A DNA stretch of 64,000 nucleotides from a virus. The stretch's first letter is position 1, and every line of letters begins with the position of its first letter. The translations under genes were made by a program, and so were the position numbers. Of the stretch, positions 35,007 to 41,088 are shown in pieces. The notes beneath the pieces were generated by a model. The model saw only the letters and a program-made list of their open reading frames with translations, ran no database searches and was not told the origin of the DNA. The DNA is taken from the IMG/VR virus record IMGVR_UViG_3300021171_000007, positions 1-64,000 of that record, one strand, 5' to 3'.

Positions 35007-36207
35007 TCTTCTCCCGCAGAGGAAACTGCGGCGCAGCCTGAGACTTGGCGAAGAGCGAAATAAACCCGGCAAAATGACTCGCCGAGCGGTTAAGTAAGTG
35101 GTTAGGCAGTCTCTCCTCAAAGGGCAAAAAGCACCAGGGAGAAAAACCTGCCATTTGCGTCGTTTCGGCGGACGGAAATATCCGCCTGAAATAACAACAC
35201 AGAGCACAGCGTTCTGAGAAGGATGCTGTGCTCGCTGGTGTTATTTCTAGCAAGGAAAAGTATGATGTCTAGTAAAAAACGCGCATTGATAAGGCATATG
35301 AAAGCAAATCCCGTAGATAGTGTGAGATCTGCACATAAAAATATGAATATCACTCCTTTGCGTTTAACCTACAGGATTGATCCAAATAAAGAATTGAAAG
35401 AACGAGATGTAAAGCCTATGACGGAATTAGCAATTGATCAAAATTACGACATTTTGAAGAGAAAAGAGACATTTCTTGTAAGAACTGGTAAGAGAGTTAT
35501 AAAATATGTGAAGAATAATCCGCCTGGAAAGCGGTATTATCCTCGATCTGAGTCAAAAATAGCAAGAGGTGATACATTAAACGGAAAGACTTTGAGTTAC
35601 ACTACGCTTTCTGATTACAATAGTAAGCGTAAAAATGAGGAGTAAGCGTTATGACAGAGCGTAAACTTGTTGACAGGAGTATTTTCAGAAAACAACCAAA
35701 AATGCCACCACTACAGCGATTGTTTGTCAGCGTAGCAACTGGACATGCCAATCGCAGCAAAAGACAAAAAGTCTCAGTTGCACCTATGCAATTCACCAAA
35801 CAGGAGAAGCAAAAATGAAAGTGTTCAATAAAGAAATGCATGACAATCTATTAGCTCTGGGATATGAGCATACTCGATATGTCTCCAAAAAATATCGAAC
35901 CAGATTCGATATGTATGATCACCCAGATAACGACGACTGGTTTGAGATAGACGAGAAAGGACATATTGATCCAGCTGATCTTTGCGGCTTTACGGAAGGA
36001 TCTACCAGAGGGCACCAAATATATGAGGATTGGAAAGCAGCAGGGAAACAAGGTTTTCTGAACTTCAAAAATAAACCATTACCGACAGAATTGGTAATAC
36101 ACAGAATAGGGTGTGATATTAAGGATAGATTAGTCAAAAAGAACATGCCATTCGAGTTAGAACTCACGGAAGAAAAATTTCAACTGAAAAGGCTTACTGA
36201 GCATTAA

Positions 36208-36270
36208 GACCGAAACTGGGGCGCCACAAAAGCTCTCCAGTCCTAGCGTAAGGCGCTAGCTGACGAGGTC
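36208..36270 (+). ncRNA. Type II hammerhead ribozyme 1 (predicted cut after C36242)
   Basis: GACC-GAAA-CTGG..CCAG-TC-CTAGCG-taagg-CGCTAG-CTGACGA-GGTC; complete catalytic core. Confidence 0.92.
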
Positions 36271-36289
36271 AGTAACAGGAGTTGTACTA

Positions 36290-36706
36290 ATGAAACTAGA
36301 TCTTAATATTCACATAAACTCTTGGTTGCATCGTAATGACGATGTAATCGACCCTATTCTCATTCAATTGAAGGGGAATAGCGAACGGATGATTGTAGAT
36401 ACTTCTGAGTATATTTTTATCAGTTTCGAGTATCCTCTTTCACAAGGACTCGATCTGCCGTTTAATGGCAAGAAGCCTTGGAGATTGTGCGATCTTATTG
36501 ATGCGATCTGCCAGGGATATGTGAAGATTTACGACGAGGAAGATGAGACCAGAACGCTTCCTGCTCAGTCCCCATTAGATTCTGTTCTGGTTAATCGTCC
36601 TAAGACTGACGGCAAGCATGGCATTTGGGGACACGATCTCAATGACCTTTATATTGAAGGCGTACATAAAGAAGAAGGAATTTGGCATCTCGATATTGGA
36701 TCATAA
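36290..36706 (+). CDS. Hypothetical protein (first gene after hammerhead 1)
   Basis: AGGAG SD directly after the ribozyme. Confidence 0.6.
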   Translation: MKLDLNIHINSWLHRNDDVIDPILIQLKGNSERMIVDTSEYIFISFEYPLSQGLDLPFNGKKPWRLCDLIDAICQGYVKIYDEEDETRTLPAQSPLDSVLVNRPKTDGKHGIWGHDLNDLYIEGVHKEEGIWHLDIGS

Positions 36707-36936
36707 TGGGAGGGAGCAATGGGATATAGAATGAGGCGTTGTGACAAATGTAAGGATTTGATAAACGGAAATGATGTTGCATTCAATATACATTTTAAAT
36801 GGTGCGGACATAATACTGGACTAAACTATATGAGTGAGAAAGATCTTAAAGTGCTGGAAGCTAAATTGGCGCAACCAAGGAAAGATTCACCAGAAGCGGC
36901 TTGGAATAAAATGCACAATTGGTCAGGAAAACAGTA

Positions 36937-36997
36937 GACCGAAACTGGAGTGCCACAAGCTCTCCAGTCGCAGCGTTCCTCGCTGCCTGACGAGGTC
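36937..36997 (+). ncRNA. Type II hammerhead ribozyme 2 (cut after C36969)
   Basis: GACC-GAAA-CTGGAG..CTCCAG-TC-GCAGCG-ttcct-CGCTGC-CTGACGA-GGTC. Confidence 0.92.
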
Positions 36998-37009
36998 AGT
37001 AATAGGAGA

Positions 37010-37240
37010 ATGAAAATGGCACGAGTAATTGTTCAAATTAAAACTGTCACATATTTAAATGGAGCTACTACTGAAATCGAAGATGAGTTACTTCGTGAAT
37101 TTACAGTAGTAACAAAAGGTCGTGGTGCAGTGAACATGCATTCAATGGCATCAATTATACAAGGTACGATCGAATCTGCTGAGGAAAGATTTAGGGTTGA
37201 AAAGACCAAAACATATTCAACAAATCGTAATATTGGTTAA
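37010..37240 (+). CDS. Hypothetical protein between hammerheads 2 and 3
   Basis: AGGAG at 37004; ATG at 37010 or 37016. Confidence 0.55.
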   Translation: MKMARVIVQIKTVTYLNGATTEIEDELLREFTVVTKGRGAVNMHSMASIIQGTIESAEERFRVEKTKTYSTNRNIG

Positions 37241-37243
37241 TTA

Positions 37244-37302
37244 GACCGAAACTGGCAGGTGCGATCTGCCAGTCGCAGCGTTTCTCGCTGCCTGACGAGG
37301 TC
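37244..37302 (+). ncRNA. Type II hammerhead ribozyme 3 (cut after C37274)
   Basis: GACC-GAAA-CTGGCAG-gtgcgat-CTGCCAG-TC-GCAGCG-tttct-CGCTGC-CTGACGA-GGTC. Confidence 0.93.
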
Positions 37303-37321
37303 AGTAACCAGGAGAACTAAA

Positions 37322-37603
37322 ATGAAACTTCCTCCAATAGAAGATGTTAAACTTACTGTCATAGGGCCGGATGATCCGCTTCCAGCGGGCTTCGAGCCCA
37401 TCACCATTGTCGTCAAGGACGTATCATGTCCAAAATGCGGTGCTGGAGAGATGCACCCGGATGGCAAGCATGTCCTAATTCGTGGATTCAAAGTCTGCGA
37501 TGCAAAAGGACATTGGTGGAGTCAATGTCTTGTCTGTGCCGGTGGGTACGACGCAGATTTGAACCCCGTTAAGGAGTTTGATCGCAACAAGGGATGGTTC
37601 TAA
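37322..37603 (+). CDS. Zinc-ribbon hypothetical protein
   Basis: CPKC...CLVC; SD after hammerhead 3. Confidence 0.55.
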   Translation: MKLPPIEDVKLTVIGPDDPLPAGFEPITIVVKDVSCPKCGAGEMHPDGKHVLIRGFKVCDAKGHWWSQCLVCAGGYDADLNPVKEFDRNKGWF

Positions 37604-38369
37604 TGCCAACCATAACAGTTGAACTCGAAGTAGCAATGGCTCAAGAGCTTGCCTCAGTAGCGCGTGGCAAAGCTAAGGGCATCGACTGGGTTCTGGAGAA
37701 TAAACCTCCAGTTCCCAAGAAGGCGTTGGAGCTTGACGAGCGAGCCAAAATTCTCGTTCAAGCTGCCACACTAATCGAGACTGCTCTTCACCAAAGAGCA
37801 CTCGGCAACGTCGTAAAGATGGGAGATAAAAATGTCCGATAAGGACCCATGGATCGTCTGCCCCGTGTGTGATGGGGAAGGCAAGACAGTCAATCCTAAT
37901 ATTGATGCGAACGGATTGACTCGCGAAGACTTCGATGAAGACCCAGACTTCAGAGAAGATTATATGAGCGGCATGTATGATATTACGTGCGCCGCTTGTT
38001 CTGGGAAGCGCGTTGTGAAACAAGCACGCATCACGGAATTAGAGCAGAATGCTGAAGATCGTCGGCTTGCTGCTCGTGAAAACGGCGACTATGAATCATA
38101 CAGTGTCGCAGGCGATTGGAGATACGGATGAAACTGGATAAACAACGCGAAAACCGAGCCAAGTACCCTTTCATTTGTGCTTGGGGCGCTAGACTTGGTT
38201 CTTTTCAATATTACATCGACGGTGAAGTTGCAAGAGCCATCGAAGATGGCGCTCCTGACCGTGCCATTTATAAGAGTGGCGACGGCAAGTGGCGCACCAT
38301 CGATGACTGCCAAAACGAAATGGCCAAAGAAGAATGTATAGCTTGGGTGGCCAAAAACTTTAAGAAATA

Positions 38370-38428
38370 GACCGAAACTGGTAGGTGCGATCTACCAGTC
38401 ACAGCGTAAGGCGCTGTCTGACGAGGTC
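38370..38428 (+). ncRNA. Type II hammerhead ribozyme 4 (cut after C38400)
   Basis: GACC-GAAA-CTGGTAG-gtgcgat-CTACCAG-TC-ACAGCG-taagg-CGCTGT-CTGACGA-GGTC. Confidence 0.93.
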
Positions 38429-38446
38429 AGTAATAGGAGTTGTATA

Positions 38447-38941
38447 ATGAAACAGGTTTCTGATTACTACAAGAAGTTCCTTCATAACGACGGAATTTCC
38501 AAAGAAATGTATAATGAAAACATCGAGCTTATTTACGATGTTGACGCAGAAATGTGGTATGCTTTTAATTACATATCACCAACGCATTACTACGAAGAAT
38601 TTGAAGATCTCATCGACGCGCTCGATTCAAATTCTGTTCTTTGGTGGCACGACTTGTCCGGCGACAATGATAAAGTTACGGACAGGAAGCAGATATTGGT
38701 AATTAAATTCCTCGATGACGAGGAAGACGAATGGACCATGTTCTACCATCACGGTATAATGGACGGCAAAGATGTAACAACATCTTGGGCTGCTCCATCT
38801 TCAGGAGAATTTCCTACTCCTGAATGCATTGTACGTCAGAAAGTATCTGTGGTGCAATGTGCTGTTGATGCCGCACAATTTATTTTTGATCAACCACATA
38901 TAAATAAGCCACGTAATCCATCACTTCGTTACGTCAAATAG
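38447..38941 (+). CDS. Acidic hypothetical protein between hammerheads 4 and 5
   Basis: SD after ribozyme 4; stop codon overlaps ribozyme 5. Confidence 0.6.
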   Translation: MKQVSDYYKKFLHNDGISKEMYNENIELIYDVDAEMWYAFNYISPTHYYEEFEDLIDALDSNSVLWWHDLSGDNDKVTDRKQILVIKFLDDEEDEWTMFYHHGIMDGKDVTTSWAAPSSGEFPTPECIVRQKVSVVQCAVDAAQFIFDQPHINKPRNPSLRYVK

Positions 38942-39007
38942 ATCGAAACTATGGGGCGCCACAGGAGCGTTCCATAGTCGCAGCGTAACTCGCTGCCTGA
39001 CGAGATC
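38941..39007 (+). ncRNA. Type II hammerhead ribozyme 5 (cut after C38979)
   Basis: GATC-GAAA-CTATGG..CCATAG-TC-GCAGCG-taact-CGCTGC-CTGACGA-GATC; compensatory change in stem II. Confidence 0.92.
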
Positions 39008-39258
39008 AGAAAAGGAGTAGGTAGCATGACGAAAGTAGATCCAAAATCTGCCTTTGAAGGGGACACCATTACTCCCGTTGAGAAGCCTAAGTCAAGGGCG
39101 CAGAAGGTTGCTGAGTACAGAGTAGCTCATCGAGCAGAGTACGAGCGAACTTGCCATGATGCACAATGCACTTGCACGCCAACTCGCGCGCAGATGTTGA
39201 TTATGGATAACTACCAAAGCCCACCAATCGACTAATTATAAACCTTACCATTGAACTT

Positions 39259-39285
39259 TGGAGCGCAGCAATGCGCTCCACTTTT
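39259..39285 (+). terminator. Terminator-like hairpin
   Basis: TGGAGCGCA-gcaa-TGCGCTCCA-CTTTT. Confidence 0.6.
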
Positions 39286-39948
39286 AGGCAATTTTGCCAC
39301 TACCAGGATAAGTAAAATGTCAAGAATAAAATCAGCTTTACGAGGTGTTGTCATAGTACCGGCTTGGGTCGTTATGCTGGCAACAGCCAGTTTTATCGTC
39401 GGAACTGGTATCTGGACTACACTGCTGATGAGCCGCTGTTCGATCTAACCAACCTAAACCAGGAGAATAAAAATGACACCTCAAGAGAGCAGGAAGAATT
39501 GGCTCGATAAGCAGCCAGTGCGCGAGAATCTTACTACTGAGCACGGATGGCCGATGCGAAATGATCATATTCTGCATCTGTTCGGTTTGCCATCAAATCA
39601 TCCTATTCCGCCGGATTATGAAGATATCAAACTAATCGGTAATGTTTGGGTTCGGATTTATCCACGCGGACAGGCGCACATTGGTAGACGTGTTGTGGCA
39701 GAATGTCCAAAATGTGAAAGATTGGTTTGTGCTGGCCATTTAATGCAACATATGAAGGTACATAATGATCGAGGAGCAAGCAAAATTTGAGAGATGGAAG
39801 TCCAGAGTAGACGTTTACCTGGAGCAGATGGTAAAGAAACTAAGTGGAGATTTTAAATATGATTATCTCCACGACTTCCAAAATAAGGTTCCACCCAGCA
39901 TAACAGCTACTCGCGTTGTAAAACGCCAGTACAGAAATGGAGTAGAAA

Positions 39949-40197
39949 ATGGTAGCAACAGCATACGGAGTCAAGGCAAATGGCAAAAAACTCCTCGATG
40001 AATATCGAGGAGACCGCATATATGGAGATTGTTTCATCATTCTTAAGGATGGAAAGGAAACATATGAGGTTGTTCTTTCCACTATCGGTGATATGTGCAA
40101 TTGCAAAGCTGGCGAACATGGTCATCAATGCAAACATGTTAAGATGGCACTAGAATATCATCACAAAATTAACGAAGCGATTGAGGCAGTCAAATAG
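39949..40197 (+). CDS. SWIM zinc-finger protein
   Basis: YEVV..CNC..CKH. Confidence 0.6.
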   Translation: MVATAYGVKANGKKLLDEYRGDRIYGDCFIILKDGKETYEVVLSTIGDMCNCKAGEHGHQCKHVKMALEYHHKINEAIEAVK

Positions 40198-40260
40198 ACC
40201 GAAACTTGGGGCGCCACAAGGCGTTCCAAGTCGTGCTGTAAGGCAGCACCTGACGAGGTC
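40197..40260 (+). ncRNA. Type II hammerhead ribozyme 6 (cut after C40232)
   Basis: GACC-GAAA-CTTGG..CCAAG-TC-GTGCTG-taagg-CAGCAC-CTGACGA-GGTC. Confidence 0.92.
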
Positions 40261-40435
40261 AGAAATGCCAAGGAGGTAGCACGTATGGGTGACCCAGAAG
40301 AGCATAAAGACGAAGAGTTGAGCCTTGAGAAAGAGACTCAAAAAGAGCCCAAAGAAGAGGCAAAAGAGCCAGTAAAAGAAGGTGATCCTCAACCAGAGGA
40401 AGATCCCAAAGTAGCGTAAATATAACGTCAACTTT

Positions 40436-40468
40436 CCGCTCCCATTTGGGAGGGTGGGAGCGGTTTTT
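40436..40468 (+). terminator. Intrinsic terminator
   Basis: CCGCTCCCA..TGGGAGCGG-TTTTT. Confidence 0.6.
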
Positions 40469-41088
40469 AGCTAGGGATGGAAAATGAAAAACATAAAAGA
40501 AATCACGTCTATGAAAGAGTTTGCTATCATTAGACGTGCTTTGGAATTATATGTTGCTACTCTAAGTGAAGAGTATGACAACAAACCAATGCGTGCCAAA
40601 CTTATAAAACTTGAAGAGGCGCAAGCCTGTTTGAGAGATTTCAACAAACTAGGAGAACAAAATGGCAAATCTAAAGAGTTACCCACCACTAAAACCTTGC
40701 CATTGCGGCAGCGGTATGGAAAGAGAAGCGAGATATGATGCTCGCGGTATTTTTCTCACGTATGTATGTGAGAAATGTGAGAAAGAAAAGTTATCACATT
40801 ATCGACCAGACGTTCTTACTGATTCAAATTATTGGCACGACGAGCCAATTGACGATTAAGACGCGGTAAACAGCGTTAATGCCCAACACACGATTGGCAG
40901 CGTAATGGGCAGACTTGCCATCTAAACCAACCCCCGTAAGATGGCTTTTTATTAATTTAGCGAATCACCTGGTTTTGCTTCAACTGCCCCCCAGTTGCTA
41001 AAAGCCAGGTGTAGACTTGCCGCCCACAGTCCCACAACTGTGGGCGGTCTTTTAGGCAATTTAGCCAACAACCAGGATTTAAAATGTC

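What the first reader, a model, noticed from the sequence alone, without database searches (positions are those of the whole stretch)
36208..40260. Six hammerhead ribozymes punctuate the early operon between stop codon and next RBS
Seen: six ~60-nt elements (36208, 36937, 37244, 38370, 38941, 40197). Each has the full hammerhead core in type II permutation: stem II'-GAAA-stem III-GUC^-stem I-CUGACGA-stem II, with G10.1-C11.1 and A15.1-U16.1 intact. Stems covary between copies (GACC/GGTC vs GATC/GATC; GCAGCG, CTAGCG, ACAGCG, GTGCTG; CTGGCAG vs CTGGTAG), which indicates selection on RNA structure. In four copies the first G is the G of the upstream TAG, in one the element directly follows TAA, and in one it starts 3 nt after TAA. 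All are followed within ~5-15 nt by AGGAG. Established: hammerheads self-cleave after GUC, leaving 2',3'-cyclic phosphate and 5'-OH ends, and isolated phage hammerheads are known. Inference: the phage cuts its early polycistronic mRNA, without host RNases, into units that start with a 5'-OH hairpin in front of the SD (a natural RiboJ-like insulator) and end in the stem III hairpin, setting stability and translation per cassette.
Basis: partly seen in the sequence, partly recalled or inferred. Interest (0 to 1): 0.92.

Follow-up and report, generated by a model that had tools for sequence, protein, structure and literature searches.

The report
Hammerhead ribozyme array in phage operon
Six genuine-looking self-cutting hammerhead RNAs sit between small genes of an uncultured soil phage, probably cutting one long message into gene-sized pieces; the layout has been known in phages since 2011, so this is a clean new example, not a new mechanism.

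Summary
Six 61-69 nt elements on the + strand (starting at 36208, 36937, 37244, 38370, 38941 and 40197) carry the complete hammerhead core in the type II permutation. Each folds into the three-way junction. The stems covary while the core stays invariant, and four related soil-phage contigs keep them at the same gene junctions. These six are the only copies in the 79.6 kb genome.

Rfam's type II model (RF02276) does not score them. A model built from them does recover RF02276-positive elements. They belong to a common phage subclass with a short loop I and a 4-bp GAYC/GRUC stem II, which the Rfam model misses.

The arrangement is not new. Perreault et al. 2011 described clustered hammerheads flanking single genes in prophages and proposed processing of polycistronic RNA. 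This scan has also reported such arrays on many other genomes.

The stop-ribozyme-SD layout is general. In 198 IMG/VR candidates, 68% abut an upstream stop codon (control 4.8%), most often a UAG sharing its G with stem II.

One addition comes from the relatives: the gene content between conserved hammerheads is swapped, so the ribozymes mark the edges of cassettes.

Cleavage, early timing and the effects on stability or insulation are untested. No RNA data were available.

The parts
36208..36272 (+). HH1, a type II hammerhead. Stem II is GACC/GGUC and stem I is CUAGCG/CGCUAG with loop UAAGG. C17 is at 36242. It directly follows the UAA stop of ORF 35815-36207.
36937..36999 (+). HH2. Its first G is the G of the UAG stop of ORF 36719-36937. 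C17 is at 36969. Loop I (UUCCU) is complementary to the downstream AGGAG.
37244..37304 (+). HH3. It starts 3 nt after the UAA stop of ORF 37016-37240. C17 is at 37274. Loop I (UUUCU) can pair with AGGAG, using G-U pairs.
38370..38430 (+). HH4. Its first G is the G of the UAG stop of the ORF ending at 38370. C17 is at 38400. Its stem III differs from that of HH3 by a compensatory C-G to U-A change.
38941..39009 (+). HH5. Its first G is the G of the UAG stop of ORF 38447-38941. C17 is at 38979. Stem II is GAUC/GAUC, a compensatory change from the other copies, and stem III is long (about 11 bp).
40197..40262 (+). HH6. Its first G is the G of the UAG stop of ORF 39949-40197. C17 is at 40232. Stem I is GUGCUG/CAGCAC.
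36273..36292 (+). Leader after HH1 with the SD AGGAG and the AUG at 36290. HH4 has nearly the same leader (38431-38449). The other leaders run 37000-37018, 37305-37324, 39010-39028 and 40263-40287.
35223..40419 (+). Block of about 17 small + strand ORFs (44-164 aa) with no assignable function. The six hammerheads fill every intergenic gap longer than 30 nt except the two that hold terminator-like hairpins. The other junctions overlap or are at most 24 nt.
39262..39290 (+). GC hairpin (7 bp) followed by a short T run. It may be an internal terminator or a stabilising hairpin between HH5 and HH6. The 39250-39320 module is conserved in L143 and L164, where it sits in other contexts.
40436..40463 (+). 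Intrinsic-terminator-like hairpin (12 bp plus a T run) that closes the block after the gene following HH6.

Best explanation
The six elements are functional type II hammerhead self-cleaving ribozymes, transcribed as part of the + strand message(s) that cover the small-gene block at 35.2-40.5 kb of an uncultured tailed soil phage.

Once the 3' strand of stem II has been transcribed, each element folds. Stem II joins its two ends, and stems I and III are hairpins. It then cuts itself after C17.

The upstream piece keeps its stop codon. It ends about 30-40 nt later in the stem III hairpin, with a 2',3'-cyclic phosphate. The downstream piece begins with a 5'-OH directly on the stem I hairpin. An A-rich leader, an AGGAG Shine-Dalgarno and the start codon follow.

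The long transcript is thereby divided into one- to four-gene units with defined, structured ends and a standard leader.

What is shown: the motif, its fold, its covariation, its conservation at orthologous junctions in relatives, and its strand and position rules.

What is inferred from work on other hammerheads: that cutting occurs.

What is inferred only: that cutting sets stability or translation, or insulates neighbouring cassettes from each other.
For: Motif and chance:
- There are 6 matches against 0.01 expected, all on the coding strand.
- The whole genome has no other copy.

Fold:
- All six minimum-free-energy structures show the hammerhead junction.

Covariation:
- Among the six copies, 98% of cells are paired and 8 of 17 pairs change on both sides.
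- Among 17 copies from this phage and four related contigs, 98.2% are paired and 12 of 17 pairs covary. CGAAA, UC and CUGANGA stay invariant.
- Among 28 more distant IMG/VR copies, 98.7% are paired and 14 of 17 pairs covary.

Link to the family:
- A model built only from these six recovers elements that RF02276 accepts above its gathering score, in L099 and L066.

Position rules shared with the family:
- In 198 distinct IMG/VR type II candidates, 134 have an upstream ORF's stop codon from 8 nt before stem II to overlapping it. The random-position control is 95 of 1980. The commonest form is UAG sharing its G with stem II, as in four of the six here.
- In the first sample, 63 of 85 have an SD and a start codon within 80 nt downstream.

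Precedent:
- Clustered prophage hammerheads cleave in vitro within ~2 kb native transcripts; the A. tumefaciens set also cleaves in vivo, after expression in E. coli (PMC3088659).
- Type II copies cleave in vivo in D. vulgaris (PMC8782182).

Product anatomy:
- The predicted products have the stem I hairpin at the very 5' end, and the SD is mostly unpaired.
Against: - No Rfam hammerhead model reaches its gathering score. RF02276 gives no hit at E<=10.
- The loop I/3'-tail pseudoknot supports fast cleavage in most type II hammerheads. It is possible in only 2 of 6 copies here, and there it would use the SD itself. The rate at physiological Mg2+ is therefore uncertain.
- Stem II is only 4 bp and open-ended. 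It competes with a local alternative hairpin, CUGAC/GUCAG.
- The six copies are paralogues, so some of their conservation reflects shared descent.
- There is no cleavage or transcript data for this phage, and the host is unknown.
Confidence: 0.8

Rival explanations
1. The hammerheads, together with their standard leaders, act mainly as cassette boundaries. At the DNA level, the ~60-90 bp conserved units would serve as homology patches through which related phages gain, lose and swap accessory gene cassettes. At the RNA level, cleavage would make each newly acquired cassette independent of its neighbours. This extends the best explanation and does not exclude it.
For: Contig L181 (70-84% nt identity) keeps hammerheads at the orthologous junctions, but the content between them differs:
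- the block HH1..HH3 plus ORF 37322-37603 is replaced by one unrelated 95-aa ORF;
- the 164-aa ORF between HH4 and HH5 is replaced by three unrelated ORFs;
- an extra hammerhead plus two unrelated ORFs sits before HH6.

Other points:
- L143, L164 and L179 show the same kind of presence/absence. Synteny breakpoints fall at 38431, 38936 and 40192-40196, which are hammerhead edges.
- The L181 copy at the HH1 junction has the HH1-type stem I but the leader of HH3, so it looks chimeric.
- Contigs from the same soil samples break off at hammerhead edges.
- Perreault et al. noted that the flanked genes are not constant.
Against: - Breakpoints at intergenic regions are expected anyway in mosaic phage genomes.
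- Only four relatives were compared, without statistics against other intergenic sites.
- Recombination within the hammerheads has not been shown.
- The invariant core and compensatory stem changes show selection on the RNA, which a pure DNA role would not need.
Confidence: 0.3
2. Cleavage is regulated and not constitutive. A ribosome terminating on the stop codon that abuts stem II would cover stem II, GAAA and part of stem III. That would block folding while the upstream gene is being heavily translated. In addition, the alternative hairpin CUGAC/GUCAG, or the loop I-SD pairing in HH2 and HH3, could link the ribozyme's active fold to initiation on the downstream gene.
For: - Flush stop codons are strongly enriched across the family (68% against 4.8%).
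- The CUGAC-GAG-GUCAG hairpin can form in all six copies, with 5 bp in five of them.
- The loop I sequences of HH2 and HH3 are complementary to AGGAG.
Against: - The base before stem II is A in 72% of family members that lack a flush stop. The Rfam type II consensus also carries A before stem II and AG after it. The flush stop may therefore only reuse ribozyme-determined bases in a compact genome.
- The SD pairing exists in only 2 of 6 copies.
- Cleavage is irreversible, so a transient block only delays it.
Confidence: 0.12
3. The elements no longer cleave, or cleave too slowly to matter. They would act only as structured intergenic RNA, for example stabilising hairpins or sites for host RNases. 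Alternatively they are selfish repeats that spread between genes.
For: - Four of 18 consensus hammerheads tested by Perreault et al. were inactive in vitro.
- There is no consistent pseudoknot.
- Rfam does not score them.
Against: - All 13 core positions are invariant in 17 related copies, while 12 of 17 stem pairs covary. Hairpins alone would not need this.
- No terminal repeats or target duplications were seen.
- All copies are on the coding strand.
Confidence: 0.06
4. Paired cleavage and ligation at successive hammerheads produce circular or spliced RNAs from the cassettes.
For: Hammerheads catalyse the reverse (ligation) reaction. Each cassette is flanked by two ribozymes, which yields a 5'-OH and a 2',3'-cyclic phosphate on the same fragment.
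Against: - Perreault et al. looked for such products from clustered prophage hammerheads and found none.
- The two ends of a cassette fragment belong to different ribozymes with non-matching stems.
Confidence: 0.02

Closest known systems
Clustered hammerhead ribozymes flanking genes in prophages (Perreault et al. 2011, PMC3088659; Agrobacterium tumefaciens ardA locus, Azorhizobium caulinodans, Clostridium scindens)
   Same: Several hammerheads lie on the coding strand between single genes or short gene blocks of phage origin. The flanked genes vary. The proposed role is to process a long phage transcript into gene-length mRNAs.
   Different: - This array has six copies of one closely related subclass in 4 kb of a free phage genome, where the tested examples had three.
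- It shows a strict stop-ribozyme-leader-start layout, which that paper does not mention.
- No activity data exist here.
Type II hammerhead family, Rfam RF02276
   Same: - The permutation is the same: stem II open, stems I and III capped.
- The core is the same.
- A precedes stem II and AG follows it.
- The model built from these copies finds RF02276-positive elements.
   Different: - RF02276 does not score these copies, even at E<=10.
- Loop I is only 5 nt, closed by G-C. Stem II is 4 bp (GAYC/GRUC). The loop I/tail pseudoknot is absent in four of six.
- The same short-loop subclass in L030, L032, L118 and L121 is also missed by RF02276.
Type II hammerheads of Desulfovibrio vulgaris shown active by cyPhyRNA-seq (PMC8782182)
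   Same: They are type II hammerheads near hypothetical and phage-like genes, and two of them lie close together. They show that such elements cleave in vivo and leave 5'-OH and 2',3'-cyclic phosphate ends.
   Different: They are chromosomal, with three copies. Their layout relative to stop and start codons is not discussed in the passages I read.
RiboJ synthetic insulator (sTRSV hammerhead plus hairpin; see PMC6206723)
   Same: It works alike in principle. Self-cleavage removes upstream sequence context and leaves a defined, hairpin-capped 5'-OH leader in front of the RBS.
   Different: RiboJ is engineered, is a type III hammerhead, and is placed after a promoter. The elements here are natural, type II, and lie between genes of an operon. 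An insulating effect has not been tested here.

Membership tests
Hammerhead ribozyme class | Conserved core: C3 U4 G5 A6 N7 G8 A9, G12 A13 A14, A15.1-U16.1 and H17 | tested here: met
   All six copies have CUGACGA, GAAA, the A15.1-U16.1 pair and C17. The same positions are invariant in 17 related copies, with N7 = C or U.
Hammerhead ribozyme class | Three helices around the core, with standard pairs next to it (10.1-11.1, 1.1-2.1, 15.1-16.1) and no multiple mispairs in short stems (criteria of Perreault et al. 2011) | tested here: met
   The minimum-free-energy folds give the three-way junction in all six. 98% of pair cells are standard pairs, and stems I and II are 100% paired.
Hammerhead ribozyme class | Helices supported by compensatory changes | tested here: met
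   Pairs changed on both sides number 8 of 17 in the six copies, 12 of 17 in 17 copies from relatives, and 14 of 17 in 28 distant copies. Slid and shuffled controls are far lower.
Hammerhead ribozyme class | Site-specific self-cleavage 3' of H17 that gives a 2',3'-cyclic phosphate and a 5'-OH | not testable with these tools
   No RNA run holds this DNA. This needs in vitro transcription or end-specific RNA-seq.
Type II hammerhead (Rfam RF02276) | [quoted passage not shown] | tested here: met
   The motif order is GAAA, then GUC, then CUGANGA. Stem II forms between the first and last 4 nt.
Type II hammerhead (Rfam RF02276) | Score at or above the family's gathering threshold (37 bits) | tested here: not met
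   There is no hit at gathering. RF02276 gives no hit at E<=10 on the region, on a 396-nt sub-stretch or on the whole genome. The model also misses look-alike arrays in L030, L032, L118 and L121, while it finds the pseudoknot-type copies.
Type II hammerhead (Rfam RF02276) | Pseudoknot of at least 4 bp between loop I and the bases just after stem II. This is present in most type II members but not all. | tested here: inconclusive
   A 5-bp pairing is possible in HH2 and HH3, and there the partner is the SD AGGAG. HH1, HH4, HH5 and HH6 have at most 3 bp.
Type II hammerhead (Rfam RF02276) | Recognisable relatedness to accepted members | tested here: met
   Model R1, built from the six copies only, hits RF02276-positive elements of L099 and L066 at E between 6e-7 and 2e-4.
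Clustered phage hammerhead arrays (Perreault et al. 2011) | Several hammerheads on one strand flanking single genes or short gene blocks in phage DNA | tested here: met
   Six copies lie in 4 kb on the coding strand and separate units of 1-4 small ORFs (the span from HH5 to HH6 also holds a terminator-like hairpin). The genome has terminase, portal, tape measure, primase, ligase and DNA polymerase genes.
Clustered phage hammerhead arrays (Perreault et al. 2011) | Co-transcription on one polycistronic RNA that is cut into pieces | not testable with these tools
   The consensus promoter scan is no better than shuffles. A terminator-like hairpin lies between HH5 and HH6. No RNA data exist.

The most novel reading that the evidence does not exclude
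The hammerhead plus its standard leader is a portable cassette adaptor. Related phages would exchange accessory genes at these ~60-90 bp units, somewhat as integrons use attC sites but by homologous recombination. Self-cleavage would then give every newly acquired gene the same hairpin-capped 5'-OH leader and a protected upstream 3' end, making cassettes plug-and-play. The shared A-G at the stop codon/stem II boundary would be part of this standard junction.
Probability: 0.25. Interest if true: 0.6.

Novelty: new member of a known kind. Interest (0 to 1): 0.33.

Why it matters
The biological role of the many hammerheads in phage genomes is still unsolved fifteen years after their discovery. 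This locus is a compact and regular example. It has six near-identical ribozymes with natural compensatory variants, standard leaders, and relatives in which the genes between the ribozymes are swapped.

That makes it a convenient test bed for two questions. Does self-cleavage stabilise or insulate individual phage genes? Do the ribozymes mark exchangeable gene cassettes?

It also shows practically that Rfam's type II model misses a common phage subclass, so counts of phage hammerheads based on RF02276 are too low.

The basic phenomenon is already published, and this scan has met it many times.

Tried and rejected
- **Rfam.** Gathering on the whole window found nothing. At E<=10 on 5.5 kb and on 396 nt, the only hits were spurious partial Hammerhead_3 alignments, which joined the 3' half of an element to a chance GAAA downstream. 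RF02276 on the whole genome gave nothing. I read this as a gap in the model and not as evidence against the motif.
- **Known phages.** Megablast of the region against GenBank phages found no match. The large terminase is at most about 33% identical over its full length (42% over 63%) to known phages, so no named relative or host is available.
- **Relatives by protein.** The search for related loci with the 164-aa cassette protein found no relatives.
- **Gene function.** Pfam, PHROGs and the ESM Atlas gave no function for the flanked genes.
- **RNA evidence.** No RNA holder is listed for this DNA. Only two soil DNA runs hold it, and one may be its source. Laying their contigs gave no information on transcripts.
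- **Promoters.** The consensus scan gave 34 sites against 34.5 in shuffles, so it is uninformative.
- **Tertiary contact.** I looked for a consistent loop I pseudoknot with the 3' tail or the 5' flank and found it in only 2 of 6 copies. I considered a loop I to loop III pairing by eye and dropped it.
- **Mobile repeat.** I considered a MITE-like element. There are no terminal repeats beyond the 4-bp stem II and no target duplication.

Full report
**1. The observation**

The window is the first 64 kb of a 79,611-bp IMG/VR virus record that CheckV rates as complete. Reading 36000-40500 shows six elements at the stated coordinates.

Each element has the same order of parts:
- a 4-nt 5' strand of stem II (GACC, or GAUC in HH5);
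- GAAA;
- a stem III hairpin of 6-11 bp;
- U16.1 and C17;
- a 6-bp stem I hairpin with a 5-nt loop;
- CUGACGA;
- the 3' strand of stem II (GGUC or GAUC);
- an invariant AG.

A pattern that encodes only the type II order of the core motifs finds exactly these six, all on the + strand, where shuffles give 0.01. Neither the pattern nor a covariance model built from the six (R1) finds another copy in the whole genome.

Each element folds on its own into the hammerhead three-way junction as its minimum-free-energy structure. Among the six copies, 98% of pair cells are standard pairs and 8 of 17 pairs change on both sides. No shuffle or slid control comes close.

**2. Surroundings**

The genome is a tailed phage.
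- The large terminase, portal and tape-measure genes lie on the - strand at 0.7-22.8 kb.
- A primase lies at 30.5-32 kb.
- Ligase and DNA polymerase lie on the + strand beyond 51 kb.

The hammerheads lie in a run of about 17 small + strand ORFs (35.2-40.4 kb). None of these gets a Pfam, PHROG or Atlas function.

Within that run the ribozymes occupy every intergenic gap longer than 30 nt, except two gaps that hold terminator-like hairpins (about 39262-39290 by eye, and 40436-40463). All other junctions overlap or are at most 24 nt.

'Early' timing is plausible for such a block but is not shown. The hairpin at 39.27 kb may place HH6 in a separate transcription unit.

The phage has no close named relative. 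It comes from soil metagenomes.

**3. Relation to the known family**

Rfam 15 does not recognise the elements.
- Nothing reaches gathering.
- At E<=10 the only hits are spurious partial type III alignments.
- RF02276 (type II) gives nothing at E<=10 on the whole genome.

A scan of IMG/VR with the same core pattern shows why. RF02276 finds the type II copies that have a long stem I, a UGG-type loop and an AGCC tail. This is the pseudoknot class. It misses arrays with a short loop I and a 3-4 bp stem II, for example the six copies in L030 and those in L032, L118 and L121.

The elements here belong to that second subclass. Model R1, built from these six alone, nevertheless recovers RF02276-positive elements in L099 and L066. 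On the 28 hits of that search the structure holds, with 98.7% of cells paired and 14 of 17 pairs covarying.

I therefore file them as type II hammerheads of a subclass that the Rfam model does not cover.

The loop I/3'-tail pseudoknot supports fast cleavage in most type II members (PMC3088659). It is possible in HH2 and HH3 only, and there the partner is the SD itself. The tertiary contact used by the other four is unknown, so their rate at cellular Mg2+ cannot be predicted.

**4. What is already known**

Perreault et al. 2011 reported the following:
- the first natural type II hammerheads;
- the proposal that long phage transcripts are processed into operon- or gene-length mRNAs;
- cleavage of three such arrays in vitro, and of one in vivo in E. 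coli.

cyPhyRNA-seq later showed in vivo cleavage of three type II hammerheads near phage-like genes in D. vulgaris (PMC8782182).

The scan's own records hold hundreds of notes on such arrays. They include follow-ups on seven- and thirteen-copy arrays and on stop codons built into the ribozyme. The arrangement is therefore a known kind.

**5. The stop-ribozyme-SD layout is general**

I parsed 198 distinct type II candidates from 127 IMG/VR loci. Each needed the core plus at least 4 bp in stems I and III.
- 134 (68%) have the stop codon of an open frame of at least 50 codons starting between 8 nt before stem II and overlapping it. Random positions give 4.8%.
- The single commonest form (48 cases) is UAG sharing its G with the first base of stem II, exactly as in HH2, HH4, HH5 and HH6.
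- In the first sample, 63 of 85 had an SD and a start codon within 80 nt, at a median of 25 nt.

The base before stem II is A in 84% of all candidates, and in 72% of those without a flush stop. AG is the commonest dinucleotide after stem II. The RF02276 consensus also carries both.

The simplest reading is that these flanking bases belong to the ribozyme, and that compact phage genomes let the stop codon reuse them. Neither Perreault et al. nor any paper found in the held library describes this layout. It is a small addition to the published picture, and the scan had noted it before.

**6. Relatives: conserved ribozymes, swapped contents**

A second IMG/VR scan brought in four contigs related to this phage: L181, L143, L164 and L179, at 67-89% nt identity over the shared parts.

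Together with the window they give 17 hammerheads of this clade. CGAAA, U16.1-C17 and CUGANGA are invariant, while 12 of 17 stem pairs covary. Examples:
- The L181 counterpart of HH5 changes an A-U pair in stem I to G-C.
- The L143 counterpart of HH6 changes stem II from GACC/GGUC to GAUC/GAUC.
- The L181 counterpart of HH4 has entirely different stems I and III.

In L181 the hammerheads sit at the same junctions, but the genes between them differ:
- The segment from HH1 to ORF 37322-37603 (four ORFs plus HH2 and HH3) is replaced by one unrelated ORF.
- The 164-aa ORF between HH4 and HH5 is replaced by three unrelated ORFs.
- An extra hammerhead with two unrelated ORFs precedes HH6. L143 has the same extra unit.

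Synteny breakpoints fall at 38431, 38936 and 40192-40196, which are the ribozyme edges.

Leaders are shared among different genes. HH1 and HH4 have nearly the same leader through AUGAAAC. The leader of HH3 recurs in L181 (identical) and, one base shorter, in L164, in front of other genes. Contigs from the soil samples also break off at hammerhead edges.

This supports the view that the ribozyme plus its leader bounds exchangeable cassettes. The number of relatives is small, and breakpoints in intergenic DNA are expected anyway.

**7. Mechanism**

Most likely (0.8), the elements self-cleave after C17 once they are fully transcribed.
- The upstream product keeps its stop codon. It ends in the stem III hairpin with one unpaired C and a 2',3'-cyclic phosphate.
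- By established knowledge of bacterial RNA decay, such an end is a poor substrate for 3' exonucleases, which need a single-stranded tail, and for poly(A) polymerase, which needs a 3'-OH.
- The downstream product starts with a 5'-OH on the stem I hairpin. This is a poor entry site for 5'-monophosphate-dependent RNase E or RNase J.
- An A-rich stretch, AGGAG and the start codon follow. The folds leave the SD largely unpaired.
- The last base of stem II lies 19-27 nt before the start codon (19-21 nt in five copies, 27 nt after HH6), roughly at the upstream edge of a 30S footprint. The element is therefore packed about as tightly as translation allows.

These consequences are inferred, not shown. 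The engineered RiboJ insulator works on the same principle (PMC6206723).

A terminating ribosome on the abutting stop codon would cover stem II and part of stem III, so translation could delay cleavage. I rate regulated cleavage at about 0.12.

**8. Verdict**

The ribozyme identification is well supported by sequence, fold, covariation and comparison with relatives. The functional story is reasonable but untested, and its core was proposed in 2011.

Novelty: a new member of a known kind.
- the general stop/ribozyme junction;
- the blind spot of the Rfam model;
- the cassette swapping between conserved ribozymes.

Noticed in passing
window 36260-36272, 36987-36999, 37292-37304, 38418-38430, 38997-39009, 40250-40262: In every copy, core bases C3-N7 (CUGAC) can pair with the last bases of stem II plus the invariant AG (GUCAG). 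This forms a small hairpin with a GAG loop (4 bp in HH5). The predicted 3' cleavage product folds this way, giving two adjacent hairpins at its 5' end. It could lock the product against religation, or it could compete with the active fold.
   Followed up: partly
IMG/VR loci L030, L032, L118, L121 (and the window): Rfam RF02276 detects type II hammerheads of the pseudoknot class (L014, L066, L099, L101). It misses a common phage subclass with a 5-nt loop I closed by G-C and a 3-4 bp stem II, including a six-copy array in L030. Counts based on Rfam therefore underestimate phage hammerheads.
   Followed up: partly
198 type II candidates in loci L007-L244: The base just before stem II is A in 84% of candidates, and in 72% of those without an abutting stop codon. 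The two bases after stem II are most often AG. These flanks look like part of the ribozyme, possibly a tertiary contact or a non-canonical extension of stem II.
   Followed up: partly
window 36273-36296 and 38431-38453; 37305-37324; L181:7725-7746 (- strand); L164:2238-2258: The leaders after the ribozymes come in a few standard types that different genes share. HH1 and HH4 have almost the same leader up to AUGAAAC. The leader of HH3 recurs in L181 (identical) and, one base shorter, in L164, ahead of other genes. HH5, HH6 and an extra L181 copy share a GGUAGCA-type leader.
   Followed up: partly
window 39250-39320: This intergenic module has a 7-bp GC hairpin and a short T run. It is 79-89% identical in L143 and L164, where it sits next to different genes. 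It may be a terminator or another portable RNA element.
   Followed up: no
stem III loops of the 17 related copies (alignment A5): The stem III tips fall into a few recurring sequence types (CACAA-type, GUGCGAU-type and GCAGUGAUGC-type), which persist while the stems below them covary. This could be shared descent, or a function of the 3'-terminal hairpin left on the upstream fragment.
   Followed up: no
L164:4860-4922 and L164:2175-2237: One related copy has an extra U between A9 and G10.1. Another has a G-C pair at 15.2-16.2, so its cleavage triplet is CUC and not GUC. These are natural variants worth testing for activity.
   Followed up: no
window 39317-39448: A 43-codon ORF with an SD encodes a strongly hydrophobic peptide. 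It could be a small membrane protein. It lies between the hairpin module and the next genes.
   Followed up: no
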